A DNA stretch of 63,254 nucleotides, filler included, from Craspedostauros australis (lineage: Eukaryota): NCBI GenBank assembly GCA_030167865.1. It is 8 parts of 8 records of this genome, joined end to end, with 100 filler letters (N's around TTAATTAATTAA, not from the genome) between each part and the next. Parts side by side here need not be neighbours in the genome. Positions count along the whole stretch, not along the records: positions 56,349 to 63,254 come from JALAGF010005852.1; 7 more parts are not named here. The stretch is one strand, 5' to 3'. This document shows, piece after piece, positions 7,414 to 63,254 of the stretch; position 1 is the stretch's first letter; each line of letters starts with the position of its first letter. The translations under genes were made by a program, and so were the position numbers. The notes under the pieces are model-generated. The model searched no databases, was not told where the DNA came from, and was given only the letters and a program-made list of their open reading frames with translations.

Positions 7414-7513
7414 NNNNNNNNNNNNNNNNNNNNNNNNNNNNNNNNNNNNNNNNNNNNTTAATTAATTAANNNNNNNNNNNNNNNNNNNNNNNNNNNNNNN
7501 NNNNNNNNNNNNN
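7414..7513. other. Artificial contig spacer (44N-TTAATTAATTAA-44N); same spacer at 11035-11134, 22636-22735, 30903-31002, 35412-35511, 51164-51263 and 56249-56348
   Basis: Identical 100-nt structure with a six-frame-stop 12-mer occurs seven times, and genes are truncated at it. Confidence 0.97.
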
Positions 7514-11031: not shown

Positions 11032-11134
11032 CTTNNNNNNNNNNNNNNNNNNNNNNNNNNNNNNNNNNNNNNNNNNNNTTAATTAATTAANNNNNNNNNN
11101 NNNNNNNNNNNNNNNNNNNNNNNNNNNNNNNNNN

Positions 11135-20117: not shown

Positions 20118-20148
<31 letters not shown>

Positions 20149-27391: not shown

Positions 27392-28482
27392 AAGTCCCAT
27401 ACTTCTTGTTGTGTAAGGATGATGGTGGCCACATGGAAGATGAGACGAGGACGACCTCCGACTTGGAGGTCGACTCCAAAGCGTCGCGGCAGAAGGTATC
27501 CCAGGAAATGTCGTCTGTTGACGTCGAATGGAAGTTTGCTCTTGGTGGACACTCTGACACAGACATATCAGGAATGTGGTCTGCAACCTCCTGCAAACAG
27601 ACAGTCACAGTTTCGTATGGTTGGACAGGCTTAATATATGCCGATTCTTTCGCTTGGCAGACGTATCCACAAAGCGAGGATTGCCACTATTTTGCACCCA
27701 GACGTCGTGTTGTTGGAACTCTGGACGAGTGTTTCTATCCTTTACCGGCTGCCTTTTCGCACGATCCCTCGGTCGGCGGCGCCAATCAAAACCACAGCGG
27801 TTCTCCCACCCCATCTTCGCCTCGTTTCGGTGACGACTGATGCTCTTTGCCGCTTTGGGGGGGGGAGTTTTCGCCCCGTGATGATCGCTCCAAACCAAGA
27901 TTTAACCTAACCGAGCAAGGGCAGTTTGTTCGATTGTCCTCCGGACAAGTTGCTGACGCTCTTGGTCACAAGTGAGGGTGGAAACCTCACAAAAAGCCTC
28001 TCCACTGTGCGTCTCGACTCGATCAGCTCCTCCACTGTCGCCAAACACCATCCTCCGGCAGCGCTATCATCGGACCGAGTCGCTGCTGGTGCGAATACAC
28101 AACTTGTTTGCATCCACAGTGACGTCGTGCCCAGCGATAACCGATAATACTGTCTGATCCGTCCTGTCGGGTGCTCGCGGGTGCTCTGCTATGCTCTGTT
28201 GAAGCCAACGCCAAGCTGGATCTCCCCCACCAACCGCAACAACAAATGAGCAGCTCTTTTGGCTGTGACAGATACGAGGACGCACATGGAGTATACTCCC
28301 TATCCGTGCCAACGCATACGTACCCATGCGTAGCCACTCCGTCGTCACACACCACAAGCCCACAACCGGCACCTGCTTTCCCACTTTGCCATGATACCCG
28401 CAAACGTGAGCATACACGCGGATCATCATCACAAGCCACACAATCTCACACCATTCCATCTCAAATCGCACCATCACCAATC

Positions 28483-30902: not shown

Positions 30903-31002
30903 NNNNNNNNNNNNNNNNNNNNNNNNNNNNNNNNNNNNNNNNNNNNTTAATTAATTAANNNNNNNNNNNNNNNNNNNNNNNNNNNNNNNNNNNNNNNNNN
31001 NN

Positions 31003-35376: not shown

Positions 35377-35511
35377 GGAGGAAATCGCGCTGCAACAAGA
35401 AGAAAACGAAGNNNNNNNNNNNNNNNNNNNNNNNNNNNNNNNNNNNNNNNNNNNNTTAATTAATTAANNNNNNNNNNNNNNNNNNNNNNNNNNNNNNNNN
35501 NNNNNNNNNNN

Positions 35512-43916: not shown

Positions 43917-46900
43917 TTACTCGATCTCCACAAGCAGATCGTCACCCTCAAGCTTGTCGCCCACGTTGACGACAACTCTCTTGACCTTTCCAGACATGGT
44001 GGCTGGGACGGAGGTCTCCATCTTCATGGCCGACAAGGTGGCGACTGTGTCTCCCTCCTTGATCTCGTCACCGGCCTTGACCTTGACGCTGACGACGACA
44101 CCGGGCATTGGACTTCCGACGGATCCTGGGCCACTGGCCTTCTCGCGGACGGCACCGTCCTTCTCGACACTGTTGTCAGTGACTGGCATGTACATCTGCT
44201 CACCGTTGACCTCGAAGATGACCACGCGTGTTCCGTCCTCGCGGACGTTCTGCATGGAAACGAGCTTGACGATAAGGGACTGTCCTCGTCCGACGTTGAG
44301 CTCGACCTCGTCGCCTTCCTTCATTGGGTTGAGGAAGATGTGAGTTGGCAGGCGGCTGACTTCTCCGTAGATGATCTCGTATGCCTTCCAGTCGGCGAAG
44401 ACCTGTGGGTAGAGAGCGAAGGAGAGAAGGTCCTTCTCGGAGATGTTGTTGCTGCCGTACGTCTTTTGCAGACTGGCGCGCTCCTTCTCGAAATCGTAGT
44501 CTGGGATGAAGGATCCAGGGCGTCCCTCGACTGGCTCCAATCCACGTCCGGCAAGGACCTTGGAGCGAAGTGGCTCCGTGAATCCACCTGGTGGAATACC
44601 AATGTCTCCGCGGAGGAAGTTGACGACGGAGTCTGGGAATGCCAACGTCTCGGCCTGCTCCATGATGTCCTTGGCCTCCAGGTTCTGGGCGACCATGAAC
44701 TGGGCCAGGTCACCGACGACCTTGGAGGATGGGGTGACCTTGGGGATATCGCCAAGCACCATGTTGGCCTCGGCATACTTGCGCTTGATCTCTGGCCACT
44801 TTTCGGTGAGTCCGAGCTGCTTGGACTGGAAGAGAAGGTTGGTGTACTGACCACCTGGGATCTCGTGCATGTAGACATCGGAAGATCCGCTGAGCTGACC
44901 GGATTCGAATGGACTGTAGAGAGATCGGACGTTCTCCCAGTACTGCGCGGATGTGATAGAAGTGCGTCAACATATCCGTTTGTTGCCATGTGTATGCGTG
45001 TCGCATAGATCCGCGCCGCAGAGACACGCAAATTAATGGAAGGAAATGGTTGAAGATGAGAAGGAGCATTGTGTGAGATGTCATTATGTGCTGTACCATA
45101 AACGCAGCAAGCACAAACGTGATGAAAGCTAATGCAGAGGTAGCTGGAGTGTGGTCACAGCAAGCAGCAAACAGCCAGACCAACAAAACAAAACGGAGCA
45201 TTGCCGCAGCACTTACGCTGTTCAAGGATCCGACGGACGCCAAGTCAAGGCCAGTGTCGAGGTCGGTTCCCTTCAAGTTGGCAACGATGGCACCGAGGGA
45301 TGGCTGCGAAGTCATTCCGGACATGCCGTCCAGGGCGGCGTCGACGATGTCGGCACCAGCGCGGGCGGCGGCGATCATGGAAGCAACTCCGGCACCGGCG
45401 GTGTCGTGGGTGTGGACGTGGATGGGGGTGTCAGGATGTTCCTCGCGCAGTGCGCTGACGAGCATGGTGGCGGCGGTTGGTGTGAGGAGGCCGGCCATGT
45501 CCTTGATGGCGAGGGAGTGGACTCCCATGCCGACGAGCTCGGAGGCGAGGTTGACGTAGTACTCGAGGTTGTACTTGCCCTTGGATGGGTCGGCGACATC
45601 ACCGGTGTAAGACATGGTACCCTCGACGAAACCGCCGGCGTTTCCGGCAGCATCGACACCGAGCTTGAGGTTTTCGAGGTAGTTGAGGGAGTCGAAGACA
45701 CGGAAGATGTCAACACCGGAGCTCTGTGCCTCCTTGCAGAATTTGTGGACGACGTTGTCGGCGTAGTTGGTGTATCCAACGGCGTTGGCACCGCGGAGGA
45801 GCATCTGGAATGGCACATCTGGGACATCTTCGCGCAGCTTCTCGAGGCGTGCCCATGGGCATTCGTGGAGGAATCGCATGGCGACATCGAAGGTGGCACC
45901 TCCCCACATCTCGAGGGAGAAAGCGTCGGCGAGGACTGTGTTGGTGGCACCGGCGATCTTGACGAGGTCCTTTGTTCGCATGCGCGTGGCAAGGAGCGAC
46001 TGGTGGGCATCGCGCCAGGTGGTGTCGGTGACCATGACTCCCTTGTTGGCACGGACGGCCTTGGCGAGGCCTTCCGGTCCCTGCTCGAGGAGGATGTGGC
46101 GCATGCCGGCCTTCTTTCCGGCCTCGGTTGGCTTGGATGGGATGGCTGGCACCTTGACTTCCTTGATCTTGGTGTTGAGCTTGGTGATGTCCGCACCGAG
46201 AGACTCCGGGTGTCCGTTGACAGCGAGGTTGGCGAGGTATCGCACGAGGTTCTCGTTACGGTTGACGAGCTTTGGATCGGCCTGGAGCTCGTTGGCGAAT
46301 CCCCAGAAGGAGGAGGAGGTCTGCTTGAGCTCTGGGTTTTCGTCGATGAAGGATGTGGTGACTGTTCCGGTCTTGAACTGTGGGTGGGCCATGACGTTGA
46401 GCAGGAATGGGATGTTGGTCTTGACACCGCGGATGCGGCACTCCTGGAGGACACGGTTCATGCGGGCGACGGTTTCTGGGAAGTTGGATCCGCGGGCTGT
46501 GTACTTGACGATCATGGAGTCGAAGTACGGCGTGATGGTCAAACCAGAGTATCCGATACCGTCCATGCGGACACCGTTTCCGGCGGAGTGACGGTAGAGC
46601 GAGAGGGTACCAGTGTCTGGAGCGAAGTCGCGTTCTGGGTTCTCAGTGGTGACACGGCACTGGATGGCAACTCCACTGTTCGTTTCATGGAGAAGTTGTT
46701 GTCGGAAGCGACCATGGTGATTTTGGGACAAGTTGCGGTTTCCAATCATAATCATAATCAGAATGGCAATTTGTTCAATTGCATTGAATTGGATTCAGTC
46801 GGATTGGAGTGTATTGCATTGTATTGCACCAATTGCGTGTCATGGTTTGATTTCATTGTATCGTTGCATTTCATTTCATAGCATCGGTTGTGTACGTGCG

Positions 46901-48796
46901 TGTCACCATGTGGTAATCGATTAAAATACATCATAGCGTTGATTTGTGCAGTGCCATCGATTCATCAATTCGCGAGTGCCGAGCATCAAGTAGAAGATTG
47001 ATGCGTCAATTGACGGAACACCAAGAGTCGGAATGATGGATTGTTGCGCCAGCGCATCAAATTAATGCCGTGCCGCGGATGCATTATTTTCGTCAATTGA
47101 GTCAAATCCATGGAACGGGATGGCATGTTCGTGAAAGCGAGAATGAGTTGCGGTGTGAGATGGATGAATCAAGAACGAAAATAACGAAATCAATCAATTC
47201 AGTCGGAACCAACGATGGTGACGCGAATGACGAATATCGACCGATGAAGACAAGACGGGTGTGACGTACCGTGGGGAGATGTTCTCCTGGATGAGACCAA
47301 CCTCTTCGAGGGAGGCACCGGAGGCGATCTTGATCTGCGCTTGCACGAGATCGATGCCTGTGACTTCCTCCGTGACGGTATGCTCGACCTGGATACGTGG
47401 ATTGACCTCGATGAAGTAGGGGCGCATTTCGGCATCGATGAGGAATTCCACCGTGCCGGCATTCTTGTACTTGGCGGCGGATGTGAGCTTCATGGCGTAG
47501 TCGTGGAGCTGGAAACGTAGCTCATCGGGAAGGGTCCAGGCTGGCGCCATCTCGATGACCTTCTGGTGACGACGCTGGACGGAGCAATCACGCTCCCACA
47601 GGTGGACGACGTTGCCCGTTCCGTCACCGAGGATCTGGACCTCGATGTGGCGTGGCTTGTCGACGAAACGTTCGACGAAGACAGCGCCATCACCGAAACT
47701 GGCGAGGGCCTCGGAGCTGGCGGATTCGTAGAGTGAGACGAGGTCCTCCATTCTGCGGACGACGCGCATTCCCTTTCCTCCTCCACCCATGGCGGCCTGT
47801 GTATATGTTTGCCAATGTGTTTGTGTTTGTGAATATTCACATCATCATTGTTGTTGTTATTGTTGTTGTCATTTGTAGGCATGCCGGTGTTGCCGATGCA
47901 ATTGAGTGTTACAGTCATCAACGATGAATAATGCCGAGCGTCAAATCACCCAAATGCGACGCAGTTGCAGCGTTGCCGAGCGAGAAAGCACAATCAATGA
48001 AAACCGAATTGATGCATGACATGTGAGAGAGTGTGAGTAATAATGAGTAAACAATGAGTGTATAATGAGTGTTCAATTGTGCAAGCACAAGTGCGCAAAT
48101 ACAAACACAGGAGCACCGTCGGAAGGAGTGACGTACCTTGAGGATAACTGGAAGACCGATGCCCTCGACGAACTCGACGACTTCCTCCGCGGTCGCGAGG
48201 GATCCGTCGCTACCTGGGACGACCGGAACACCGGCCTCAATGGCAGCCGCACGGGCGCTGGTCTTGTCGGCAAATCGCTCGAGGTTCTCGACGGTGGGCC
48301 CGACGAAGACGATGCCAGCATCCTGACAGGCCTGCGCGAACTCCGATGACTCTGAGAGGAATCCGTATCCCGGATGGATGGCCTCGACGTCGGCATCCTT
48401 GGCGATTTGGATGATCTGCGGGATGTCCAGGTAGGCGGAGATGGGCGTGGCGCCCTCGTCCTTGTCGAGAAGGAAGGAGCGGTCGGCCACCCAGCGGTGC
48501 TGTCCGTAGCGATCCTCGTGGGAGTAGATGGCCACTGTCCCGGCGTTCATCTCTGTGGCCGCGCGCATGATGCGCACTGCAATTTCCGCGCGGTTGGCCG
48601 CCATGATTTTGGAGAAGACCGGCTTGGCGGAGAATGGATCGGCGGCCGCATCGGTGGTGGTGCCCGTCGTCTCGCTCTCAGTGGCCACGTTGAGGTGGGT
48701 CCTCATGGCAGCGCGGCCTGTGCGAGGAGCGAAGGCTCCCGCGGATGCCGCCAACAGCGCCCATAGCAGGGCGGACGATGATGCAACGACTCTCAT
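43917..48796 (-). CDS. PYC: Plastid-targeted pyruvate carboxylase, ~1223 aa; exons 48796-48137, 47796-47270, 46675-45217, 44942-43917
   Basis: Signal peptide + [75 protein letters not shown], biotin motif AMKM. All three introns are GT-AG and phase-compatible. Confidence 0.97.
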
Positions 48797-50129
48797 CTTG
48801 CTTCTCACTCTGTTTCTGTCTGTTGCTCTGTTTGGATCCTCAGCGGATTGCTCCAATGATTGCTCCAATGATTGGATTACTGGATGAAAATAATGAATAT
48901 AATGAGTGAATATAATGAGTGAATTGGGTGGATCAGTGAATGAGCAGATCAATAGATCGATGAGTGACGGTAATGTGAGGGGTGAAGACACCTGACTCCA
49001 ATTTATGATCTGTGACGATGCCAAACTTCCGACCAAGATGCTGAGCTTCGTGCACTTGTATCCATGACGGGGCTCTCTGTTTTGCAGTTGTGCCTTGTCA
49101 TAGTCATGCACAAAGATGCGCGGTTGCCGCCACCACGCGCATTGTTCTCGGGCGAACAACAAGGTGTCCGATCCTCGACCACCGTCCTTGCAACTGCACA
49201 CCTCACATCAACACGACGGAGAGAGAATTCGCCAGCCAACAAACCTCCTGAATTTTTGGATCCATCACCGTTGTTCTCACAGACAAGTTCGGCAGACAAA
49301 AACAGATGGATCCGGCGGTATCTTGCGATAGCGTCTGACCAACCATCCGATTGGACACGCTGACGTCGATTTGGCATCACGAAACTGCACCTGATTCGGG
49401 AACAATGAGAATTTTGGTCGAGCCGGTCGATGAAAATGAAATTGTCGCATGTGACATCAGTGTGACATAAAATGGCTCGAAAGAGTCACACTGGCGCAAA
49501 TGCGTGACGAATGGCAGAAACCGTCAAATGCGCGAAGATGAAGGGGGAAAATGATCTTGGAGGGAAAGAAGGTGATCCATCACCGCACGAGCACGAAAAC
49601 GGGAACGAGGCACGAGCGTGGTGAGGAGTGTGGTGGGGGGAACCAAGTGCCAAGAGAGCCAAACAGAGAAAGGGAAAGAGAGAGAGAGACAACATCGAAG
49701 TGGAAGGACACCGGATCAGACCCTCTTTGCTTTCCCTTGCTGTGTGTTGTGTCAACTGCATCATCGGATCGAAGAGAGACGTGAAGAAACATCAAGCAGC
49801 ATCAAGCAAGGCCAGGCGCAGCGAAGAGCGACAGGAGGAAGTGAAGGAAGCCATTGCGGAGTGGAGAAAGTTGACACCAGGCCTGAGACATCGACCATCA
49901 GCTGTGTTACAACTACAACTACTCTGGCTGTGTTACAACAGTGCTATTCCCAGTGTCAGGAACAACATCGAGCCACATCTGTGAGGATTCATTGAGTTGC
50001 TCTCAGAGGCATTCAGAGGAATAGACATCCACAAACACCTCTGGAGTGCTCTACTCTACTCTCCTCAAATCTATTGCCACTACGACTACCACCACTGCAA
50101 CTATTCTACAACCTATACAAACACCCACA

Positions 50130-51163: not shown

Positions 51164-51263
51164 NNNNNNNNNNNNNNNNNNNNNNNNNNNNNNNNNNNNN
51201 NNNNNNNTTAATTAATTAANNNNNNNNNNNNNNNNNNNNNNNNNNNNNNNNNNNNNNNNNNNN

Positions 51264-54200
51264 TGTGCCGCGATCGTTGGGATGTTGATGGGTTCTTGGC
51301 GATGAAGATCGCTCCAATGTTGTCCACGCGGACCTTGATCGGTGTCTTCACTGGGACGCCCACACTTTCGAGTAGCTGCACGACGAAGAAGATTTCCTTT
51401 GCNNNNNNNNNNNNNNNNNNNNNNNNNNNNNNNNNNNNNNNNNNNNNNNNNNNNNNNNNNNNNNNNNNNNNNNNNNNNNNNNNNNNNNNNNNNNNNNNNN
51501 NNNNNNNNNNNNNNNNNNNNNNNNNNGTGTTCTTGTCTCCTGCATATTCGCTATCGCAGAAGAGCTCCATGTCCCAGCCGTCATCGTCTGGACGTGCTGG
51601 ATGGATCTTCAATCCATAGTCTTTTGTATCGATCACATACTTGATGATCCGATACATCTCCTTCATTGCAGCCTTGGTGGGCCCGATCAATACCTTGGAG
51701 AGTTCTCTCACAGGGTTTGCGATATCTGGTCGCGAGTGCTTGATGAGGAAGAGTAGCATACCGACGCCTCGGCGATATTCGGCATGTTCTTCCGGTCCGA
51801 CCTTNNNNNNNNNNNNNNNNNNNNNNNNNNNNNNNNNNNNNNNNNNNNNNNNNNNNNNTGTCCCATAGCGTTGCATCTTCTCAACCTTGGTTCCGAACTC
51901 TTCGATGAGGTGTCGGATGAGATGTGGTTGACGCAATGTCGCTCTTGTCTTGTCATGGTTCAGTTCGATGTTGCAGCTGAGGTAGTTGCCGAGTCCGCGC
52001 TCGATTGTCACCTTGAATTTGCTGTCTTGGATATCCTTCAGGAATGTCTCCAGTGCCTTGGAGTCTCCGCAACAGAAGCAATCGTCCACATAGATGGCCA
52101 CGATCATGCTTCCTTTGTTCGTCTTCCTGTAGAACAGGCACGGGTCTGCTGCGCTCTGTTCGAAGTTGATATTCTTGAGGGTNNNNNNNNNNNNNNNNNN
52201 NNNNNNNNNNNNNNNNNNNNNNNNNNNNNNNNNNNNNNNNNNNNNNNNNNNNNNNNNNNNNNNNNNNNNNNNNNNNNNNNNNNNNCAGTTCATGTAGATC
52301 TCCTCGTCGAGGTCTCCATGTAGGAATGCCGTTACGACATCGACGAGTGCGCAGTCCATCTTCTTGATCAACATGATTACCATCATGACCCGATAGGTCA
52401 CGTCATGGATGACGGGTGAGTAATGCTCTTGGAAGTCCACTCCTGCGACTTGTGANNNNNNNNNNNNNNNNNNNNNNNNNNNNNNNNNNNNNNNNNNNNN
52501 NNNNNCACGATCATGCTTCCTTTGTTCGTCTTCCTGTAGAACAGGCACGGGTCTGCTGCGCTCTGTTCGAAGTTGATATTCTTGAGGGTTGACACCAACA
52601 TCTTGAACCATTGCCTGGCGCTCTGCACAAGTCCGTAGATTGGCTTGTGTAGGGTCAGGGCTTCGTCTGGTTGATGATNNNNNNNNNNNNNNCAGTTCAT
52701 GTAGATCTCCTCGTCGAGGTCTCCATGTAGGAATGCCGTTACGACATCGACGAGTGCGCAGTCCATCTTCTTGATCAACATGATTACCATCATGACCCGA
52801 TAGGTCACGTCATGGATGACGGGTGAGTAATGCTCTTGGAAGTCCACTCCTGCGACTTGTGAATAGCCACATGCAACGAGTCGCGCTCGATGTGTGCCAT
52901 CACGCTTCAGCTTGAAGACCCATTTGCACTTGCAGCATCTGCGGCCGCGTGGTATGGCGTCTCGTTTGATCTTGCTGTACACCTTGCGTGTATCCATGGA
53001 GTCGAACTCCTTCTTGATGGCTGCTCAATATCCCTTTCGATGGATGGGATCTGGATGGTTGAAGGCTCCATCGAATGTCGTTGGTTCGATGTGCTTCTCT
53101 GGTTCCTTGTTCTCGTCCTGCATCGAGAATCCGATATCGATCGCTGGTACCTCGGTGATGATTGCGTTCATCCCGTATAGTCCTGTTGTGCTATGATGAG
53201 TGATTTCGATCTCTTCTTCTCCGTCTACGATTTCTTCGTCATCTGTAGATTCGTTGTTGGATTTGTCGGTTATCTCATCGCTCAGTTCGTCACTATCTTC
53301 CTCAGATGATGACTTGCTCTCATAGCCTTCCTCCTTTTGACCTCGTTCGTTGAAGTCTGCGAGCTCACGCAGAGCTCTGGGAATACTCTTCCCTGTAGTT
53401 GGCTTGGGATTAGCTTCTCCCTTCCTGCCTTGTGCTTCGTGACATCGGATTCTCTCCTTTCTGGCTATGTCACGTTTGCTTGGTTTGCTTGGTTTGCTTG
53501 GTGGAGGTCTGGATGGTGTGTCATGTGTAGACCTGGCTGGTGTGTTTGGAGGAATGATGCCTGTGTCATTGTCAGCTTCGTCGCCGGATGGTGTGATCTC
53601 GTCATCCTCATGATTGGATTCGCTCCAATCTTCGTCGTTGTTATGGATTAGTTGGGTTACTGCTCCATCGTCTTCGTCATCCTCATCGTCGCTATCTGAT
53701 AGGATGTGATACTTGTTCGTGTCAGCGAAAGACACTCTCTTCGCTTCCGATGTTAGACGCGTTGCCGTCCTTGGCGTTGCTCCCTTCCGTCCAATGGTTG
53801 TGAAGCCGTCTGCGTCCGTGGTTCCTACTTCGTTGGATATGTTCGGTGCTGGTGCCCAGCCGCGGAATTGTCCGTATGATTGGTTGAGCCATTTGATGTC
53901 ACGTGAACAGATCAGTGACTTGGTTGATGGTCTGTACATGTTGTAGACCCCTGATGCGTGTTGGTGTGCATATCCGATGAACACCATCTCTTCTCCTCTA
54001 TTCTTGAGNTTGGCGGTGATCCCGCCGTAGGTAGTCTTCACAACACCCACCTCTCCAAATGTACGGAGTGCATCCGCATATGGTGGATCGTTGCCGAAGA
54101 ATTGGCGATGTGGTGACTCCTTCTGATTCTTCGCTACGGTGATGTTGGCGATGGCGGTGGCAGTGCTTGCAGCTGCTGCCCACAGGCTGTGCCTGTACTC

Positions 54201-56223
54201 TTCGTCGAGTTGTGCTCCATTGAGCATGGAGCGGATCTTGGTGTAGAGGTACGCGAACTTGCGTTCTACTCTACCGTTCTGTTGCGGCGTGTTCGATGCC
54301 GTGAATTCGAATTTCACGTTNNNNNNNNNATCGATGAGAATATCCTGCATGGATTTGTTCTCTCCGCTGTTGTCTCCTCGGAAGATGATTTGTTGATCAC
54401 CAGTCTGTGACTTGATCGTCTGGACGAATTGTTTGATGTATCCTGGTTGATCACTCTTGTTCTTGAGAAAGAAACTCCAGCAGTGATCCGTGCAGTCGTC
54501 CACAATCAGGGTCCAGTAGCGTTTATCTCCGAAGCTTATGTGTTTAGTGTAACTAATGTCAATGAAGAGACGTTCACCGCTGTGAGTTGCTCTTGGGATT
54601 GTTGCCTTCAAGATGTTCTTCACTCTTGCGTTCGCGACCGCGCAGTCGCGACATACCGGCATTTCACCGATNATCTTCCATCCGNATTGAGCGGCTGTCC
54701 GCTTCATGGTCTTGAGTGGCGCGTGGCCGAGCATTNGATGCAAGTTCACNGCGCTGATCTCCTTGGATGGATTCTTGATGATGGCTGTGCAAGCCTTGTC
54801 GTCGACTGTTGGCATGATGGGATGCATCTGCACTCCCATGATGAACCCGTTGGATGTGGGGAAGACTCGATCGAACATGATCTTCGTTCTGGATCCGTTG
54901 ATGGTGTCCATCAGAATGCCGTTGCTACCAAGCTGGCATCCATTGTACAGAGCCTTGTTCGTTGAGAAAAGGTTCACCACCATTTTCGGTGTGTACTTCA
55001 CATCATCGAGCCGGATGATGTNNNNNNNNNNNNNNNNNNNNNNNNNNNNNNNNNNNNNNNNNNNNNNNNNNGATGAGAATATCCTGCATGGATTTGTTCT
55101 CTCCGCTGTTGTCTCCTCGGAAGATGATTTGTTGATCACCAGTCTGTGACTTGATCGTCTGGACGAATTGTTTGATGTATCCTGGTTGATCACTCTTGTT
55201 CTTGAGAAAGAAACTCCAGCAGTGATCCGTGCAGTCGTCCACNATCAGGGTCCAGTAGCGTTTATCTCCGAAGCTTATGTGTTTAGTGTAACTAATGTCA
55301 ATGAAGAGACGTTCACCNCTGTGAGTTGCTCTTGGGATTGTTGCCTTCAAGATGTTCTTCACTCTTGCGTTCGCGACCGCGCAGTCGCGACATACCGGCA
55401 TTTCACCGATAATCTTCCATCCGCATTGAGCGGCTGTCCGCTTCATGGTCTTGAGTGGCGCGTGGCCGAGCATTTGATGCAAGTTCACCGCGCTGATCTC
55501 CTTGGATGGATTCTTGATGATGGCTGTGCAAGCCTTGTCGTCGACTGTTGGCATGATGGGATGCATCTGCACTCCCNNNNNNNNNNNNNNNNNNNNNNNN
55601 NNNNNNNNNNNNNNNNNNNNNNNNNNNNNNNNNNNNNNNNNNNNNNNNNNNNNNNNNNNNNNNNNNNNNNNNNNNNNNNNNNNNNNNNNNNNNNNNNNNN
55701 NNNNNNNNNNNNNNNNNNNNNNNNNNNNNNNNNNNNNNACATCATCGAGCCGGATGATGTGGCCAGTGTTGTCTCGTTGCTTGACCTTCAAGCGAATGGA
55801 TCCCATTTTGGGAGAGTCCAGCTTTGTGCTATCTCCCACTTGGACGAAGGACTTGATGTGCCGCACGTTGAAGAGAGCGGCGTCCGAAATGACGATATGA
55901 CACGAAGCTCCGCTGTCGGCGAGCCAGGTGTCTTTGTTGACCTTGTCCTTGTATCTGCTACTCAGCTCGTGGAGCTGCTCCACGGCTGCTGCAGCTATCT
56001 CGTCGTCAAAGCTGCCGTCGTCTTCATCTTCGTGGACTCTGTCTTTGTTGTACGGATTGTGATGATCTCCATCATCCATGCCGTCATCGCTTGGTAGTTC
56101 TGCGTAGTCCGATGGAACTGTGCTGTTCTGATGGATTCTGGCCCCTGTGTCGTATGGCGCGACGTGTGGTCGCTCGCGCAAGAGCACACGCATGCATCCT
56201 CCAAGGACGTAGTGTAGATCCAA
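51264..56223 (-). mobile_element. Ty1/copia pol (protease-integrase-RT-RNaseH), fragmentary, with an in-frame stop
   Basis: WLADSGASCH, LHQMLGHA...CRDC, FIDI...GDNSGEN...QQNGRVERK, CKWVFKLK..RARLVACGYSQ, YVDD, SRPDIA, DSEYAGD, VDNIGAI; TGA at 53025-53027 lies in frame between integrase and RT. Confidence 0.93.
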
Positions 56224-56348
56224 TTCTGAGAGTTGATCCTCTTCTGCTNNNNNNNNNNNNNNNNNNNNNNNNNNNNNNNNNNNNNNNNNNNNTTAATTAA
56301 TTAANNNNNNNNNNNNNNNNNNNNNNNNNNNNNNNNNNNNNNNNNNNN

Positions 56349-56855
56349 TGACGAAAGAATCTCGGAATCTTCAGAAACAAATAATCTACCGATCGAGAGG
56401 AATCTAACGTCAGTGGGAACACGAGGAGCAGAGCATGAACGTCAGCAGAGGAGCAAGACCAGATATATATGGATGAGAGGAACCACTTAGGTAAGACGTC
56501 AGGATTAGAGACTGACGCAATCGAGTTCCTGAATCTCTGTCTGACACAACCAAGACCAAATAAGACAACAACACGACNNNNNNNNNNNNNNNNNNNNNNN
56601 NNNNNNNNNNNNNNNNNNNNNNNNNNNNNNNNNNNNNNNNNNNNNNNNNNNNNNNNNNNNNNNNNNNNNNNNNNNNNNNNNNNNNNNNNNNNNNNNNNNN
56701 NNNNNNNNNNNNNNNNNNNNNNNNNNNNNNNNNNNNNNNNNGAGAAAGAGGAATCACCAACCTACAAACCCGGGATAACAGAACAACTAACTTAGTGAAC
56801 CAATTGTAGCCCCACCCGGTCTACATGAGCAACAGGATTGAGACCTGTTTCAACA
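56349..56855 (+). mobile_element. Probable LTR 3' portion abutting the LRR gene
   Basis: Non-coding, A-rich, TATATA at ~56464, ends ...CCTGTTTCAACA directly before LRR coding sequence that lacks an ATG. Confidence 0.45.
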
Positions 56856-59800
56856 GGCGTAGTGTTCTCCCCCAGTGGTGAGAACAGCAGCAGCAACGGC
56901 AACATTGATGGCAGCAGTAGTAATCAGCCCACCGTAAATGGCCCTAGTGATCGAACGTCACAAAATCCGACCCTCAGACCCACAGATACACCGAGTGATC
57001 TACCCTCGTCGAGCCCAACTCATAGACCCACGGATATACCGAGTGATTTACCCTCGTCGAACCCAACGTACAGCTTCGATCAATCGGAAGCTTTCTTCGC
57101 CATTTGGGAGGTGCTCCTGCCCACACTCCAAGAAGAGCCTACCTTCATCGATACAACCATACTCGCCAGCCCAACCAGTACTGCACACCGGACATTGAAC
57201 TGGATGGCAAACAGCAACCACCCAGATCTCACATCAATGATTGCGGAAGATGCACAAGCCAATGTCACGCGCCTATTGGAGTACTATGCAGTGGTGAGCA
57301 TATTCTTTTCACTGCATGGAGCCAAGTGGAACGACAAGATGGGCTTTCTATCAGATGCTGACGTGTGCGACTGGCACTCTTCCTCTGGTGGCGTGGCATG
57401 CAATAATGGCCATGTGGTACAAGTAGCTTTGAGTGACGAAGGCATGCGGGGCACGCTCGATCCAGCCCTGTATCATCTCTCACACCTTGAGAAATGGTCA
57501 ATGAAAATGACTTCCAGCACTCGCGGACAGATCGATGGTATCATCTTCAGTCACATTGGCATGTTGAGTATGCTATCAGAGCTAACTCTTGTGTACATGG
57601 AACTGCGAGGTGCGTTTCCGTCAGAATTGTATCAACTTCCGCAATTGACACATCTTGACCTGAACTCCAACAACTTCGCTGGACCACTTCCTTCTCAGAT
57701 TGGTCGATTGACAGCAATGCGACATCTTGATCTGGATTACAATGACTTCACTGGACAGCTTCCATCCAAAATTGGTCTGCTGACATCATTGGCATGCCTT
57801 GACCTGGATTTCAACGGCTTCACCGGGCAGCTTCCATCCGAAATTGGCCTGCTGACATCATCGGCACGTCTTGGCTTGGATTACAACAACTTCGCTGGAC
57901 CACTTCCTTCTCAGATTGGTCTGCTGACATCATTGGCACATCTTGACCTGGTTTACAACGGCTTCACTGGGCAGCTTCCATCCGAGATTGGCCTGCTGAC
58001 ATCATTGGCACGTCTTGGCCTGGATTACAACGACTTGACAGGACCACTTCCTTCTCAGATTGGTCGATTGACAGCATTGCGACATCTTGACCTGGAGTAC
58101 AACAGCTTCACTGGGCAGCTTCCATCCGAGATTGGCCTGCTGACATCATTGGCACGTCTTCGCCTGGATTCCAACGACTTGACGGGACGGCTTCCATCCG
58201 AAATTGGTCTGCTAACATCATTGGCACGTCTTGACCTGGATTACAACAGCTTCACTGGGCAGTTTCCATCCGAAATTGGTCTATTAGCATCTTTGGCAGG
58301 TCTTGAGCTGGAAGAGAATGACTTGACAGGACGGCTTCCATCCGAAATTGGCCGACTGACAGCGATCACTGGTCTTCGTCTACGAGGGAACGACTTCACT
58401 GGGCGGCTTCCATCCGAGATTGGTCTACTGATAGCATTGTCACGTCTTGACCTGAATCACAACGATTTCACTGGACAGATTCCGTCCGAAATTGGTCAAC
58501 TGACCGCACTCACTACACTTAGTCTACACCGGACCAAAGTCACTGGACCACTTCCATCTCAGATTGGTCAGCTGACAGCTCTCGCCTCTCTTGATCTGGG
58601 ATCTACCGACTTGACTGGACAGCTTCCATCCGAGATTGGTCAACTGACAGCACTCGCCTTTCTTGATCTAGAATGGGCCAAATTCACTGGACAGATTCCA
58701 TCAGAGATTGGTCAACTGACAGCACTGGCACGTCTTGACCTGGGACCTAATGACTTCACTGGACAGATTCCATCAGAGATTGGTCAACTGACAGCACTCA
58801 CCCTTCTTGACTTGGAGACCAACCACTTCACTGGGAGGCTACCATCCGAGGTTGGCCAACTGACAGCGCTGGCACATCTTGATTTGGAATGGACCAAATT
58901 CACTGGACAGCTTCCATCCGAGATTGGTCAGCTAACATCATTGGGACATCTTGACCTGGAACAGGCGCACTTCACTGGGCATCTTCCATCCGAGATTGGT
59001 CAACTGACAGCGCTCACCTTTCTTGACCTGGATTTCACCGATCTGACTGGACAGATTCCATCCGAGATTGGTCAACTGACAGCTCTCGCCTTTCTTGACT
59101 TGGGACCTACTGACTTCACTGGACAGCTTCCATCCGAGATTGGTCAGCTGACAGCACTGGCACGCCTTGATCTGGGGTCTACTGAATTCACTGGGCAGCT
59201 TCCATCCGAGATTGGTAAACTGACAGCTCTCGCTTTTCTTGATTTGGGGCCTACTGACTTCACTGGACAGATTCCATCCGAGATTGGTCAGCTGACAGCT
59301 CTTGCCTTTCTTGACTTGGGACCTACTGACTTCACCGGGCGGCTTCCATCCGAGATTGGTCAGCTGACAGCTCTCGTCTTTCTTGATCTAGGATGGGCAA
59401 AATTCACTGGACAGCTTCCATCCGAGATTGGTCAGTTGACAGCGATCATGGGTCTTCGTGTACGAGGGAACGACTTCACTGGGCGTCTTCCATCCGAGAT
59501 TGGTCAACTGACAGCGCTCACCTCTCTTGACCTGGAGACCAACCACTTCACTTCGCGGCTACCATCCGAGGTTGGTCAACTGACTGCTCTCACATTTCTT
59601 GATTTGGGACCTACCGACTTCACTGGACAGATTCCATCCGAGATTGGTAAACTGACAGCACTCACCTCTCTTGATCTGGAATGGACCAAATTCACTGGGA
59701 GGCTTCCATCCGAGGTTGGTCAACTGACGGCACTCGCACGTCTTGATCTGGAACAGGCGCGCTTCACTGGGCAGTTTCCATCCGAGATTGGTCAGCTAAC

Positions 59801-62361
59801 ATCATTGAGACATCTTGACCTGGAACGGGCGCACTTCACTGGACAGCTTCCACCCGAAATTGGTCAACTGACAGTGCTCACCTCTCTTGATTTGGGGCCT
59901 GCCGACTTCACTGGGCGGCTTCCCTCCGAGATTGGTCAGCTGACAGCTCTCACTATTCTTGATTTGGGGCCTACTGAATTCACTGGGCAGCTTCCATCCG
60001 AGATTGGTCAACTGACAGCATTGAGATATCTTGACCTTGAACAGGCGCACTTCACTGGGCGTCTTCCATCTGAGATTGGTCAACTGACAGCACTCGCCTT
60101 TCTTGACCTGGATTTCACCGATCTCGCTGGACAGCTTCCATCCGAGATTGGTCAACTGACAGCTCTCGCCTTTCTTGATTTGGGACCTACTGACTTCACT
60201 GGGCAGCTTCCATCCGAGATTGGTAAACTGACCGCTCTCACCTTTCTTGATCTGGAATGGACCAAATTCACTGGGCAGCTACCATCCGAGGTTGGTCAGC
60301 TGACAGCACTCACCTCTCTTGACCTGGAGACCAATAACTTCACTGGGTGGCTACCATCCGAGATTGGTCAACTGACAGCATTGGGACATCTTGATCTGGG
60401 GCCTACTGACTTGACTGGACAGATTCCATCCGAGATTGGTAAACTGACGGCTCTCACCTTTCTTGATCTGGGATGGACCAAATTCATAGGGCGGCTACCA
60501 TCCGAGGTTGGTCGACTGACAGCACTCACTTCTCTTGACCTGGAGACCAACAACTTCACTGGGCGGCTACCATCCGAGATTGGTCAACTGACAGCATTGG
60601 GACATCTTGATCTGGGTCCTACTGACTTCACTGGACAGATTCCATCTGAGATTGGTAAACTGACAGCACTCACCTTTCTTGATCTGGAATGGGCAAAATT
60701 CACTGAGCAGCTTCCATTCGAGATTGGTCAGCTGACAGCTCTCACTTTTCTTGATTTGGGACCAACTGACTTCACTGGACAGCTTCCATCCGAGATTGGT
60801 CAACTGACAGCATTGAGACATCTTGACCTGGAACAGGCACACTTCACTGGGCGTCTTCCATCCGAGATTGGTCAGCTGACAGCACTGGCACGTCTTGACC
60901 TGGATTTCACCGATCTCACTGGACAGATTCCATCCAAGATTGGTCAACTGACAGCTCTCGCCTTTCTTGACCTGGGATCAACTGACTTCACTGGACAGCT
61001 TCCATCCGAGATTGGTCAACTGACAGCACTCACCTTTCTTGATCTGGAATGGTCAAAATTCACTGGGCAGCTTCCATCCGAGATTGGTCAGCTGACAGGT
61101 CTCACTTTTCTTGACTTGGGACCTACCGACTTCACGGGTCGTCTTCCATCCNNNNNNNNNNNNNNNNNNNNNNNNNNNNNNNNNNNNNNNNNNNNNNNNN
61201 NAGGCGCACTTCACTGGGCGTCTTCCGCCCGAGATTGGCCAGCTGACAGCACTCACCTTTCTTGACCTGGATTTCACCGATCTCACTGGACAGATTCCAT
61301 CCGAGATTGGTAAACTGACAGCTCTCGCTTTTCTTGATTTGGGGCCTACTGACTTCACTGGACAGCTTCCATCCGAGATTGGTCAACTGACAGCTCTCGC
61401 CTTTCTTGACTTGGGACCAACTGACTTCACTGGGCGGCTTCCATCCGAGATTGGTCAGCTGACAGCACTTACCTTTCTTGATCTGGAATGGACCAAATTC
61501 ACTGGACAGCTTCCATCCGAGATTGGTCAGCTGACAGGTCTCACTTTTCTTGACTTGGGACCTACCGACTTCACGGGTCGTCTTCCATCCGAGATTGGGA
61601 AACTGACAGCGCTCACCTTTCTTGATCTAGAATGGAGCAAATTCACTCGACCGCTTCCAACTCAGGTTGGTCTCCTCGCATCATTGGGAACAGCCAGGAT
61701 CCCCGGAATCTAATTCAGAGCCATTGTCCCAACACAACTGGCTAAGCTTACACAGGTTGACTATATTCGCCTGAAACATAACAACTTCATTGGCGACCTT
61801 GACCCCCTCTTCTGCGCATCTTCATTCTCTTTCAGGTATTTCCGAAGTGACTGCGCAAGCGGTCCGCATGGCGAAGACCCAGAAGTTATCTGCACCTGTT
61901 GCACCTCATGCTTCTACACCAAGTACGAAACGATGGCAGCCCCCAAAAACAGATACGACCGATTCAACGTCAATGTAGGCAACTTATACGAAGATATTCT
62001 CAAAGCAGCGCGATCGCACAAACAATCGCCATTTGCCACGGCCTTCTTCATTTCCATCCTTGTGCGTACCATACCTGTGGAAGACTCTCTCATTTCAACA
62101 CCATTCAACAAACGGGTGCCTACGCTCTTCCCAAAACAAGATGATCTCGCACACAAGCATCAGAGTGTTTGGGGAAGCACAAACAGTGACCATGGTGGGC
62201 TCAAACCAAATGGAATGAAACGACAAGCGTTCCTTGATGATAGTATGGAGCACGTCACAGAATGGTTCGAGTGGGTATACGGCAAATATCCAATAAAGAA
62301 AACATATCAAGTTGATGGTTTCTTCACGAACACATTTCTCTACTTAATTTGTGGAATGTGA
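56856..62361 (+). pseudogene. Giant LRR surface-receptor-like gene (at least 56 x 24-aa units), 5' truncated, in-frame TAA at 61711-61713
   Basis: PT/PS stalk, N-cap (YYAVVSIFFSLHGAKW...VCDW...VAC), LxxLxLxx(N/T)xFTGxLPSEIGxL units from 57648 with a gap at 61152-61201. After the TAA the frame continues through one more LRR, a C-cap (SDC...EVICTCCTSC) and on to 62361. Confidence 0.85.
57648..61680 (+). repeat. 72-nt coding tandem array
   Basis: 49 indel-free units before the gap and 7 after; conserved CTTGAYCTGG, TTCACTGG and CCATCCGAGATTGGTCA blocks. Confidence 0.97.
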
Positions 62362-63254
62362 GTGACAACGGACGAAATAGTTGTAACGGACCCTCTGGGT
62401 CTTGGAGTCGTCGTTGTTGGCTTTCGCTCGTCTTCCTCATCCCATCGCCTCGTGTTCGCGGTCCTGGTGGTGTTTAGGGGGATATCGCATTTCACATTGC
62501 GAGTCCCACGGTACAAAATAACCTGATAATGACATTTTTAGAGGGGCAACATGCGAACTTCCCCCTCGGAAAGTGAAACTCGATTGCGTTTTAGGAGCCA
62601 AAAACANNNNNNNNNNNNNNNNNNNNNNNNNNNNNNNNNNNNNNNNNNNNNNNNNNNNNNNNNNNNNNNNCCAATCATTTCTCTTCATTTGCAGCAATGT
62701 TGAGTCGTCCTTGTCGTGCTGATGATAGTTTTTATGAGATGCTAATGATGATGAAACTAGCATTCCGAATGAGGGGTGCATGGAGCGATAGAGAGTGATT
62801 GCGATGTCGAATATGCTTGTAATCTTCACATATGATATCTGCGCGCAAGTATCAAAGGCCCCCTTCATGATCCAGCTGAGGAATCTTTGCTCATATCCTA
62901 TTTCACCCGATGCAACATCCGCGGCGTGTTCCTGATGCTCTGAGGATTAGTGNAGTCAGATACNACCAGGGACTTCNACCAACGGACATTTTGCATCCTT
63001 TGGAGATCCTGAATGCCATATCAGAAGTCGTTGGTGGTCTCCAATCACCCCAACATGCAATCGCAATAGTTCTGTGTAGACTGGGTGAAGAGCTTCTATT
63101 GGACAACTACAGTGCAGGCATGAGCACCCGGACCCCAGCTAAACAGCAGCGGCACACGCATACATACAAGCATACATACAATGAATGAGCAATCTATGGA
63201 TTCCGTGCTCCCTTCGCGCCAAGCGCGAAGTTGAAAGGAGGCGGAGAAAAGCGC

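What the first reader, a model, noticed from the sequence alone, without database searches (positions are those of the whole stretch)
57648..61680. LRR array assembled combinatorially from a small module vocabulary: candidate diversifying receptor system
Seen: at least 56 units of exactly 72 nt. Variation is concentrated in two slots around LDL. Slot 1 is AF/TF/TS/AR/GH/RH; slot 2 is GPTD/EWTK/EWAK/ETNH/ETNN/EQAH/DFTD/GSTD. The slots reassort (GPTD follows AF, TF and GH; EQAH follows GH, RY and RH; DFTD follows TF, AF and AR), separated by near-invariant DNA blocks. Established: these positions form the ligand-contacting concave face of LRRs, and LRR shuffling diversifies lamprey VLRs and brown-algal ROCO genes. 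Inference: intragenic recombination or conversion generates recognition diversity in an intronless diatom surface receptor.
Basis: partly seen in the sequence, partly recalled or inferred. Interest (0 to 1): 0.78.

Follow-up and report, generated by a model that had tools for sequence, protein, structure and literature searches.

The report
Giant mosaic LRR array, diatom-type membrane protein
This is a real run of about 56 leucine-rich repeats in a probable diatom cell-surface protein gene, and its mix-and-match look fits ordinary block duplication and short sequence exchange in a tandem repeat, not a dedicated diversity-generating system.

Summary
One + strand reading frame carries 49 gap-free 72-nt LRR units (57624-61151). 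A 50-N scaffold gap follows, then a partial unit and 6 more full units (61231-61662). Amino-acid variation sits mainly at unit residues 9-10 and 14-17. These two slots occur in several combinations.

Assortment is not free. The slots are statistically linked: 29 distinct pairs against 34.1±1.6 under random pairing. Unit order shows duplicated 3-5-unit blocks (15 runs against 6.9±2.1; 0 of 500 shuffles). Slot-2 "words" persist across silent changes, which indicates constraint. No repeat cassettes lie elsewhere in the window.

The gene matches a family of about 620-790-residue proteins, likely diatom, with cytoplasmic tail, membrane helix, S/T/P linker, N-cap, 8-13 LRRs and a Cys-rich C-cap. Here the LRR region is expanded to about 57 repeats.

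The gene model is imperfect:
- the 5' exon is missing;
- the array contains a gap in an assembly whose 50-N gaps often flank redundant sequence;
- an in-frame TAA lies before the last LRR and C-cap.

Best reading: an expanded membrane-anchored LRR gene that evolved by unequal crossover plus short-tract conversion. Somatic or programmed diversification is untested and has no support here. Interest is low to moderate.

The parts
56249..56348 (.). Contig join: 44 N, a 12-nt six-frame stop spacer, 44 N. The LRR gene's own contig or scaffold starts at 56349.
   Evidence: The same 44-12-44 pattern occurs 7 times in the window.
56578..56741 (.). 164-N gap upstream of the ORF. The 5' exon or exons (cytoplasmic tail and membrane helix) are not found in the window.
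   Evidence: No helix-like motif appears in six frames.
56857..57062 (+). Probable start of the large exon (acceptor CAG at 56854-56856), followed by a Ser/Thr/Pro-rich linker with a 48-nt repeat.
   Evidence: A contig of run X1 matches from 56854 and is preceded by unrelated letters that encode a hydrophobic stretch (table 7).
57063..57623 (+). N-cap domain (..C.W..GV.C..) plus 2-3 irregular LRRs.
   Evidence: 4720 library proteins at E<=0.001; P0199 37% identity over query 1-185; nearest Atlas clusters are Bacillariophyta; plant LRR receptor ectodomains align from the cap.
57624..58487 (+). Units 1-12: canonical Asn-type 72-nt LRR units.
   Evidence: Residue 16 is N in units 1-12.
58488..61151 (+). 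Units 13-49: 37 units of 72 nt, mostly Thr/Ala-type, built from about 5 slot-2 word classes. This stretch is contiguous with units 1-12.
61152..61201 (.). 50-N scaffold gap inside the array. Its size does not fit the frame or register.
61202..61662 (+). Last 29 nt of a Q-type unit, then units 50-55 (6 x 72 nt).
   Evidence: Unit 54 is identical to unit 49.
61663..61734 (+). Degenerate LRR unit, still in 24-residue register, with an in-frame TAA at 61711-61713 (unit residue 17).
61735..61914 (+). Last LRR (61735-61806) and Cys-rich C-cap (61807-61914: ..FC..DC..C.CC..C), in the same frame as the array.
   Evidence: read by eye; aligns to the C-terminus of P0223, E 2e-08.
61915..62361 (+). Open frame continuing to TGA at 62359-62361. 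It has no family match and its coding status is unknown.
   Evidence: protein 4: 0 families.

Best explanation
The region is the ectodomain-coding part of a gene for a membrane-anchored, kinase-less LRR protein of a family that appears to be diatom. The family layout is: cytoplasmic N-terminus, one membrane helix, S/T/P linker, N-cap, LRRs, Cys-rich C-cap. Here the LRR region has been expanded from the family's usual 8-13 repeats to about 57.

The expansion came from repeated tandem duplication of blocks of 1-5 units (unequal crossover or replication slippage). Short-tract exchange between units (gene conversion, or crossovers inside the conserved 9-nt LDL core) and point mutation then re-paired the two variable slots in some units.

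The small 'vocabulary' reflects a few ancestral unit types that selection has kept. Slot 2 includes the ladder residue 16 and is conserved within types. Slot 1 (residues 9-10, in the beta strand) varies more freely.

Shown here: the array, its periodicity, the block duplications, the partial slot linkage, the mosaic units and the family architecture.
Inferred: the recombination mechanism, the membrane topology, surface exposure, and a binding role (receptor or adhesin). The ligand is unknown.
For: Array and LRR identity.

Predicted fold: an LRR solenoid with strand/helix period 24, mean pLDDT 76.1 and pTM 0.68. Top fold matches are plant peptide-receptor ectodomains. Top PDB sequence matches are GSO1, ERL2, FLS2, MIK2 and BRI1.

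Family:
- The N-cap query finds 4720 library proteins at E<=0.001.
- Among the three nearest full-length matches, P0223 and P0255 carry all five parts: a helix-like hydrophobic segment, S/T/P linker, N-cap, 8-13 LRRs (some Thr-type) and a C-cap; P0199 has the same parts but its C-terminus shows only part of the Cys motif.
- Our post-array sequence aligns to the P0223 C-cap.

Block duplication: there are 15 runs of at least 2 consecutive similar unit pairs against 6.9±2.1 in order shuffles (0 of 500 reach the observed value). The longest run is 5 units, 33-37 ~ 44-48.

Exchange:
- Slot-1 haplogroups that differ at 4 or more bases each occur with G, W and F slot-2 classes.
- Unit 46 is an F-type unit carrying the exact slot-1 12-mer of unit 16.
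- LD falls from r2 0.25 (under 6 nt) to about 0.05 (over 12 nt).
- Framework silent diversity is nearly the same within slot-2 classes (0.267) as between them (0.328).

Partial linkage: MI 2.10 against 1.75±0.10, p about 0.001. There are 29 distinct slot pairs against 34.1±1.6, with 9 of 5000 shuffles at or below 29.

Constraint: framework dN/dS is 0.21. Within-class slot-2 pN/pS is 0.25 at pS 0.35. There is no stop or frameshift across 55 units.
Against: - The gene model is incomplete. No start codon or membrane-helix exon is in the window. An in-frame TAA precedes the last LRR and C-cap.
- The array is interrupted by a gap in a draft assembly. Of the other five 50-N gaps, 3 are flanked by redundant copies of the same sequence. 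The last 84 nt before the LRR gap recur exactly at 61507-61590. Unit order and count across the gap are therefore unsure.
- Single-site four-gamete counts (Rm 19 in 72 nt) are too high to be all recombination. With unit dS about 0.4-0.5, recurrent mutation must contribute.
- For site pairs 9 nt or more apart, LD shows no further decay with distance (355 of 2000 permutations).
- The slot-2 class test is partly circular, because classes were defined by amino-acid similarity.
- No close relative (over 47% identity) was found with which to compare unit order.
- The diatom assignment rests on Atlas cluster taxa and one named Bacillariaceae hit at 43% identity. These are leads, not proof.
Confidence: 0.62

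Rival explanations
1. A dedicated diversifying receptor system: units or half-units are actively reshuffled, somatically or at a high mitotic rate, to generate recognition diversity. This would be functionally like lamprey VLR assembly or the somatic recombination hypothesised for Ectocarpus LRR-ROCO genes.
For: Variation is concentrated on the strand and the loop after it. The slots occur in several combinations. LD is very short-range. Run X1 holds short contigs whose two ends match different units of this array, always offset by whole units once the mis-sized gap is allowed for (tables 5 and 5c). So other module combinations exist somewhere in that data set.
Against: - No donor cassettes lie on either strand anywhere else in the window, although only about 6.9 kb is truly contiguous with the gene.
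- The array is a complete open frame, not an incomplete germline gene.
- Unit order is block-duplicated, not random, and the slots are linked.
- Slot-2 words are conserved across silent changes, and slot dN/dS is 0.60.
- Mean unit identity is only 78%, with framework dS about 0.4. The array is therefore old, not rapidly turned over.
- The X1 joints have 31-46 nt on the shorter side at 90% likeness or more. The tool warns that joints with under 30 nt on the shorter side, or at likeness under 95, often come from repeats or other organisms. These joints are as well explained by paralogues.
Confidence: 0.04
2. Assembly artefact: the mosaic order, or part of the array, is a chimeric path through reads from several paralogues or two haplotypes. 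The segment after the gap may be a redundant or allelic copy of units 45-49, not a further part of the array.
For: - The window is a draft built from contigs joined by stop-codon spacers, with many N runs and single Ns.
- Of the other five 50-N gaps, 3 are flanked by duplicated sequence at 98.8-100% identity.
- The pre-gap contig ends in an 84-nt exact copy of 61507-61590.
- The post-gap unit order (Q,F,G,G,W,G) parallels units 45-49 (Q,F,G,W,G).
- There are 345 repeated 31-mers in the array.
- Tandem repeats are a known source of misassembly (PMC6868369, passages).
Against: - Only 2 exact repeats of 60 nt or more exist in the array (84 and 71 nt), so reads of 100 nt or more can place most units uniquely.
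- The 49-unit stretch is one gap-free piece, and it contains block duplications of its own (33-37 ~ 44-48, 37-39 ~ 40-42).
- The pre- and post-gap overlap is only 86% identical outside the 84 nt, unlike the 98.8-100% redundancy at the other gaps.
- 45 of 125 X1 contigs laid on the region are 99% or more identical to it. That supports the local sequence but not the long-range order.
Confidence: 0.15
3. A recently inactivated pseudogene: an expanded LRR gene that has lost function. Its mosaic would then be a relic without present function.
For: An in-frame TAA at 61711-61713 lies ahead of the conserved last LRR and C-cap. The unspliced reading keeps perfect 24-residue register, so a nonsense change fits better than any frame-keeping GT..AG intron; the three candidates would all break the period. 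No 5' exon was found. One X1 contig at 93% identity reads TAG at the same codon (table 3).
Against: - About 4.0 kb of array has no stop or frameshift, and framework dN/dS is 0.21.
- For a protein anchored at its N-terminus, loss of only the last LRR and cap could still leave an anchored ectodomain.
- The missing 5' exon may simply lie in the 164-N gap or beyond the contig end.
- Run X1 (kind guessed as RNA by the tool) holds identical pieces, for example 57452-57584 with 0 differences (table 8).
Confidence: 0.15

Closest known systems
Diatom transmembrane, kinase-less LRR proteins, e.g. Pseudo-nitzschia multistriata MRP2 and MRM2 (PMC6261938; passages read)
   Same: They have a membrane segment plus an LRR ectodomain and no kinase. 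They are annotated by similarity to plant LRR receptor kinases. The authors propose them as receptors or adhesion molecules, and state that LRR is a common domain in diatom proteomes.
   Different: The nearest library relatives (P0199, P0223, P0255) have 8-13 LRRs, against about 57 here.
Plant LRR receptor-like proteins and receptor kinases, and plant resistance-gene LRRs. Their evolution by unequal crossover, gene conversion and diversifying selection is recalled; the review PMC3645687 was seen only as a search listing.
   Same: They share the 24-residue plant-type LRR, variation at the xxLxLxx strand positions, and evolution by intragenic or intergenic exchange and repeat-number change.
   Different: There is no kinase and no plant LRRNT_2 Pfam hit. 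Most units replace the ladder Asn by Thr or Ala (36 of 42 units are not N). The anchor is probably N-terminal. The variable positions use few words and are not hypervariable. dN/dS is not above 1 overall.
Ectocarpus LRR-ROCO exon shuffling (Zambounis et al. 2012, PMC3341825; abstract and passages read)
   Same: It is also a stramenopile case, with an LRR domain remodelled by shuffling of repeat-sized modules and diversifying selection claimed on the LRRs.
   Different: In Ectocarpus each repeat is its own exon, shuffled exons also lie on the non-coding strand, and the protein is a cytosolic Roc-COR GTPase. Here the array is one uninterrupted frame, no units lie on the other strand, and there is no Roc/COR hit. 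Somatic recombination is only a hypothesis in that paper.
[quoted passage not shown]
   Same: The binding protein is built from LRR modules, with variation on the concave face and a mosaic of module types.
   Different: VLR genes are incomplete in the germline and are completed somatically from flanking cassettes. Here the array is complete in the genome and no cassettes were found. Somatic change was not testable.
Fungal HNWD/NLR repeat domains with concerted evolution and repeat shuffling (Paoletti et al. 2007, PMC1805685; search listing and start of abstract only; details recalled)
   Same: Both involve tandem repeats inside one gene in which unit exchange and a few variable surface positions produce recognition variants.
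   Different: Those repeats are recalled to be nearly identical to one another and under clear positive selection. Here units average 78% identity and only codon 10 shows pN/pS well above 1.

Membership tests
Leucine-rich repeat proteins, plant-specific 24-residue class | Tandem 24-residue units fitting LxxLxLxxNxLxGxIPxxLgxL, recognised by LRR profiles | tested here: met
   55 full units of exactly 24 codons. Pfam LRR_14 E 2.2e-139, LRR_1 E 4.5e-78 and LRR_8 E 5.1e-36 on units 13-49.
Leucine-rich repeat proteins, plant-specific 24-residue class | Conserved Asn at the ladder position (unit residue 16) | tested here: not met
   N is present in units 1-12, but in only 6 of the 42 units numbered 14-55 (T 25, A 9, S 2). 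Relatives P0223 and P0255 also have Thr-type units (by eye).
Leucine-rich repeat proteins, plant-specific 24-residue class | Curved solenoid fold with one beta strand per unit | tested here: met
   AlphaFold2 on units 14-35, single sequence: strand and short helix repeat every 24 residues, mean pLDDT 76.1, pTM 0.68. Foldseek top hits are RGFR1, GSO1, FLS2 and ERL1. This is a prediction only.
Diatom-type membrane LRR family represented by P0199, P0223 and P0255 | N-cap domain homologous over its whole length | tested here: met
   P0199 E 9e-26 with 37% identity over query 1-185; P0223 E 6.7e-24 with 37%; P0255 E 3.9e-22 with 35%.
Diatom-type membrane LRR family represented by P0199, P0223 and P0255 | Last LRR followed by the Cys-rich C-cap (..FC..DC..C.CC..) | tested here: inconclusive
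   The cap is present and aligns to P0223 residues 595-650 (E 2e-08). However, it lies downstream of an in-frame TAA.
Diatom-type membrane LRR family represented by P0199, P0223 and P0255 | N-terminal cytoplasmic region plus a single membrane helix before an S/T/P linker | tested here: inconclusive
   The linker is present, but no helix exon is in the window. One X1 contig joins a hydrophobic stretch to position 56854 (table 7). The helices in the relatives were judged by eye; no predictor was run.
Plant-type LRR receptor kinases | Intracellular protein kinase domain | tested here: not met
   No kinase family appears in any part of the frame from 56838 to 62361.
VLR-like somatic assembly systems | Incomplete germline gene flanked by donor LRR cassettes | tested here: not met
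   The array is an open frame of 49+6 units. The unit profile finds nothing significant outside it on either strand of the window. Only 56349-63254 is contiguous with the gene.
VLR-like somatic assembly systems | Different assembled arrays in different cells of one individual or clone | not testable with these tools
   Only one run with a 0.07 word share was offered, and it is kept as short contigs.
Ectocarpus-type LRR-ROCO exon shuffling | One exon per LRR, with introns between units and a Roc-COR GTPase | tested here: not met
   Units abut without interruption, and there is no Roc or COR Pfam match.

The most novel reading that the evidence does not exclude
Diatoms divide clonally for long periods. 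In them, this very long intron-free LRR array could act as a mitotically unstable recognition cassette. Frequent in-register unequal exchange and short-tract conversion between units would give sister lineages different ectodomains. That would be a population-level, VLR-like surface diversity system in a unicellular alga, for example for mate, bacterial or parasite recognition.
Probability: 0.05. Interest if true: 0.8.

Novelty: new member of a known kind. Interest (0 to 1): 0.3.

Why it matters
Kinase-less membrane LRR proteins are abundant in diatoms but almost uncharacterised. They have been proposed as pheromone receptors, adhesion molecules or environmental sensors (PMC6261938, PMC9054022, PMC7335047; passages read). 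This locus is an unusually large example, with about 57 repeats against 8-13 in its nearest relatives. Its internal structure records how such ectodomains grow and are remodelled: block duplication plus short exchanges, with one variable slot constrained and the other freer. It is a reasonable target for long-read population surveys of repeat-number and repeat-order variation. It does not in itself show a new diversity-generating mechanism.

Tried and rejected
- Whole-genome search: no genome is held for this window, so paralogues could not be counted.
- Close relatives for comparing unit order: two word-index searches with units 13-49 gave only generic LRR proteins. Near-length: 4905 of 8000 scored candidates at E<=1e-10, 120 listed, highest identity 47%. 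Longer: 1191 at E<=1e-30, 120 listed, highest 47%; the diatom-named P0345 reaches 43% and is a different, Asn-type protein.
- The N-cap search against longer proteins gave 2 weak hits.
- Sequencing runs: only one holder was listed, with a 0.07 word share, kept as short contigs, kind guessed as RNA. No RNA holder is on record. Its contigs cannot show long-range order. Bins without cover, and joints with 31-46 nt on the shorter side, are not used as evidence.
- Frame-keeping introns that would remove the TAA: three GT..AG candidates exist (51, 81 and 90 nt). All break the 24-residue period, so I rejected them in favour of a nonsense codon in a degenerate unit.
- Block-haplotype mutual information was saturated by too many haplotypes and was uninformative (second part). 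I replaced it with site-level LD.
- Hudson-Kaplan Rm (19 in 72 nt) is rejected as a count of crossovers, because silent sites are multiply hit.
- Earlier notes of this scan: none for this genome or by sequence. The word search gave LRR arrays in other genomes only.
- Literature searches: none of the listed papers describes an intragenic LRR module mosaic in a diatom. In one search all 12 listed papers had 0 occurrences of 'diatom'. This covers the held library only, and no supplements were opened.

Full report
**1. What is there**

The window is a draft pseudo-scaffold. Seven times it contains 44 N, a 12-nt six-frame stop spacer and 44 N. It also has many other N runs and single Ns. The finding lies in the last piece (56349 to the window end).

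TRF reports a 72-nt period at 57962-61659: 51.3 copies, 72% matches, 1% indels, score 2549. The + strand frame that opens at 56838 can be cut every 72 nt from 57624 into 49 consecutive units, with no indel, stop or frameshift, up to 61151. A run of exactly 50 N follows (61152-61201). After it the same repeat continues in another frame: 29 nt of a unit, then 6 full units (61231-61662). The frame and register need a gap of 43+72k nt, so the 50 N is a placeholder.

Pfam confirms LRRs (LRR_14 E 2.2e-139 on units 13-49). A DNA profile of the units hits every unit and nothing significant elsewhere in the window on either strand.

**2. Anatomy of the units**

Units 1-12 are canonical Asn-type plant-like LRRs (..LDLDYNDFTGQLPS). 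From unit 13 on, the ladder Asn is mostly Thr or Ala: among units 14-55 the residue is T in 25, A in 9, N in 6 and S in 2.

Among those 42 units, amino-acid variation sits at residues 9-10 (slot 1) and 14-17 (slot 2). Nonsynonymous diversity is 0.42 there against 0.08 in the other 18 codons. Residues 2, 4, 7, 18, 21 and 22 vary less. Asp12 is present in 41 of 42 units.

Slot 2 falls into five word classes, with one odd unit:

| Class | Words | Units |
|---|---|---|
| G | GPTD/GSTD-like | 18 |
| W | EWTK/EWAK/EWSK/GW.K | 10 |
| Q | EQAH-like | 5 |
| F | DFTD | 4 |
| N | ETNH/ETNN | 4 |

An AlphaFold2 model of units 14-35 (single sequence, mean pLDDT 76.1, pTM 0.68) shows a 24-residue strand/helix period. 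The strand covers unit residues about 7-12, so slot 1 lies in the strand and slot 2 directly after it. The best fold matches are plant peptide-receptor ectodomains (RGFR1, GSO1, FLS2, ERL1). I did not compute side-chain exposure. That these positions face the concave side follows from established LRR structure.

**3. Do the slots reassort freely?**

No. They are partly linked.
- Slot 1 and slot 2 words share more information than shuffles: 2.10 against 1.75±0.10 bits, p about 0.001.
- The 42 units show 29 distinct slot pairs against 34.1±1.6 under random re-pairing, with 9 of 5000 shuffles at or below 29.

Exchange has nevertheless occurred.
- At DNA level slot 1 has two haplogroups that differ at 4 or more bases, including the silent Leu8 codon. 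Group I occurs with classes G, W, F and N. Group II occurs with G, W, Q and F.
- Unit 46 is an F-type unit whose 12-nt slot-1 block is identical to that of the otherwise different unit 16.
- Site-level LD is high only inside each slot. It falls from r2 0.25 (under 6 nt) to 0.13 (6-11 nt) and about 0.05 beyond, against a null of about 0.024.
- Beyond 9 nt there is no further decay (355 of 2000 permutations). Rm of 19 in 72 nt is too high to be crossovers alone. With silent divergence of 0.4-0.5 between units, recurrent mutation contributes.

**4. Order of units**

The class string is ccccccccccRccGWGNWQFGGGGWRNGWQQGGQFGWNGWNGWGQFGWG-gap-FGGWGW. Here c marks a unit outside the five word classes (units 1-10, 12 and 13) and R marks the two RGND units (11 and 26).

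Consecutive units recur as blocks: 33-37 ~ 44-48 (5 units, 4-7 differences per unit), 37-39 ~ 40-42, 47-49 ~ 52-54, 23-25 ~ 51-53, and 19-21 ~ 34-36 ~ 45-47. There are 15 such runs against 6.9±2.1 when unit order is shuffled (0 of 500). The longest is 5 against a mean of 2.4 (0 of 500). The array therefore grew by duplication of multi-unit blocks, not by drawing modules independently.

Between paired units of these blocks there are 105 differences in 22 pairs: 29 in nt 19-30, 22 in nt 40-51 and 54 in the remaining 48 nt. That is roughly a twofold excess per base in the slots.

**5. Selection**

Framework dN/dS is 0.21. Slot codons give 0.60 overall. Only codon 10 is well above 1 (pN/pS 4.9), and codon 17 is about 1.1.

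Within slot-2 classes the slot-2 codons have pS 0.35 but pN 0.09 (ratio 0.25), so the words are kept across silent change. This test is partly circular, because the classes were defined by residues. Slot 1 is close to neutral (0.83 within classes, 1.18 between). Framework silent diversity is almost the same within classes (0.267) as between them (0.328), so framework and slot 2 are decoupled.

Together this speaks for a constrained scaffold with a few maintained loop types and a freer strand position. It does not speak for hypervariability.

**6. The gene**

Upstream of the array lie an S/T/P-rich stretch and a 187-residue N-cap region. Searched against 1.84 billion representatives, the N-cap finds 4720 proteins at E<=0.001. 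Many hold it several times.

The three matches that cover it fully are P0199, P0223 and P0255 (620-787 aa, 35-37% identity). By eye each has a long N-terminal region, one hydrophobic helix-like segment, an S/T/P linker, the N-cap and 8-13 LRRs (some Thr-type). P0223 and P0255 end in a Cys-rich cap (..FC..DC..C.CC..); the P0199 C-terminus shows only part of that motif.

In the window, the array frame continues after unit 55 through a degenerate unit, a last LRR and exactly such a cap. This aligns to the end of P0223 (E 2e-08). The degenerate unit, however, carries an in-frame TAA (61711-61713) at unit residue 17. The unspliced reading keeps perfect 24-residue register. The three frame-keeping GT..AG candidates would all break it. 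I therefore read this as a nonsense codon: real, allelic or an error.

No start codon or helix exon is in the window. One contig of run X1 matches from 56854, just at a CAG acceptor, and is preceded by letters that encode a hydrophobic stretch (table 7). This hints at a 5' intron and an upstream helix exon, if X1 is RNA, which the tool only guesses. No kinase or Roc/COR domain is present.

Atlas look-alikes of the N-cap are eukaryotic clusters whose commonest phylum is Bacillariophyta (scores 0.96). One named hit is from a Bacillariaceae MAG (43% identity). The diatom origin is thus likely but not proven here.

**7. How far the assembly can be trusted**

Inside the array only two exact repeats reach 60 nt (84 and 71 nt), so reads of 100 nt or more could place most units. 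But 345 31-mers are repeated.

The 84-nt repeat is the very end of the pre-gap piece (61068-61151 = 61507-61590). Elsewhere in the window, 3 of the other five 50-N gaps (33893, 52456, 55022) are flanked by 98.8-100% duplicate sequence, i.e. unmerged overlaps. The other two (8600, 15957) are not. At the LRR gap the flanks are only 86% alike outside the 84 nt, so simple redundancy is unlikely. The post-gap order (Q,F,G,G,W,G) does parallel units 45-49 (Q,F,G,W,G), however.

The safe statement is 49 contiguous units. The remaining 7 and the total depend on the scaffold.

The only public run offered (X1, 0.07 of the sampled words, short contigs) holds 125 pieces that fit the region, 45 of them at 99% or more. 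One is an exact 133-nt piece at 57452-57584. This supports local sequence only.

**8. Interpretation**

The best-supported reading (about 0.6) is an expanded member of a diatom-type family of membrane-anchored, kinase-less LRR proteins. Its ectodomain grew by tandem block duplication and was remodelled by short-tract exchange and point mutation. It probably acts as a surface binding protein, either receptor or adhesin. The ligand is unknown.

Comparable diatom transmembrane LRR proteins have been proposed as pheromone receptors or adhesion molecules (PMC6261938, passages). LRR families are expanded by tandem duplication in Seminavis (PMC7335047, passages) and enriched in the Nitzschia putrida secretome (PMC9054022, passages).

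There are no cassettes, the order is non-random, the words are constrained and the units are old. It could not be tested directly.

Rivals are a partly chimeric assembly (about 0.15) and a recently inactivated gene (about 0.15). Neither is exclusive of the main reading.

**9. Novelty and score**

This is a new, unusually long member of a known kind of protein, shaped by known repeat-evolution processes. Earlier notes of this scan on LRR arrays in other genomes reached similar verdicts; I treat them as unchecked leads.

Interest is 0.3. The locus is a good target for long-read population work, but nothing here would surprise a specialist.

Noticed in passing
window 7414-7513, 11035-11134, 22636-22735, 30903-31002, 35412-35511, 51164-51263, 56249-56348: Seven identical joins (44 N, a 12-nt six-frame stop spacer, 44 N) show that the window is a concatenation of separate contigs. 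Neighbourhood across these joins, for example the retroelement next to the LRR gene, need not be real.
   Followed up: partly
window 33676-34159, 52099-52862, 54333-55576: Three 50-N gaps are flanked by near-identical copies (98.8-100%) of the same sequence. These are probably unmerged contig overlaps that create false tandem duplications.
   Followed up: partly
window 53025-56223 (- strand): Two overlapping ORFs carry the same long peptide. It looks like a retrotransposon integrase core, an identification recalled from its motifs with no family search run. The duplication coincides with the redundant flanks of the 55022-55071 gap.
   Followed up: no
window 3743-7411 (- strand): A complete B12-dependent methionine synthase in one open frame of 1222 residues: S-methyl_trans, Pterin_bind, B12-binding_2, B12-binding and Met_synt_B12.
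   Followed up: no
window 44710-46794 and 47918-49207 (- strand): Pieces of a biotin carboxylase / HMGL-like enzyme (pyruvate-carboxylase-like) split over at least two frames. This suggests introns or frame errors.
   Followed up: no
window 28141-30900 (+ strand): A 920-residue open frame with an AAA_16 / STAND-type NTPase domain (E 7e-23) and no other recognised domain.
   Followed up: no
window 16009-21894 (- strand): A very long open frame (1962 residues after the gap; 2226 in all) with no Pfam match at E<=1e-4.
   Followed up: no
window 59802-60155, 60567-60947, 61053-61358 (- strand): Open frames of 101-126 residues lie antisense to the LRR array. They are a by-product of the repeat lacking stops in a reverse frame.
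   Followed up: no
window 56976-57067: A 48-nt direct repeat (1.9 copies, 90% matches) encodes the Pro/Thr/Ser-rich linker ahead of the N-cap.
   Followed up: no
window 61606-61784: One contig of run X1 matches here with 13 differences in 179 nt and reads TAG where the window has the in-frame TAA. A diverged copy therefore seems to keep a stop at the same codon (tables 3 and 8).
   Followed up: partly
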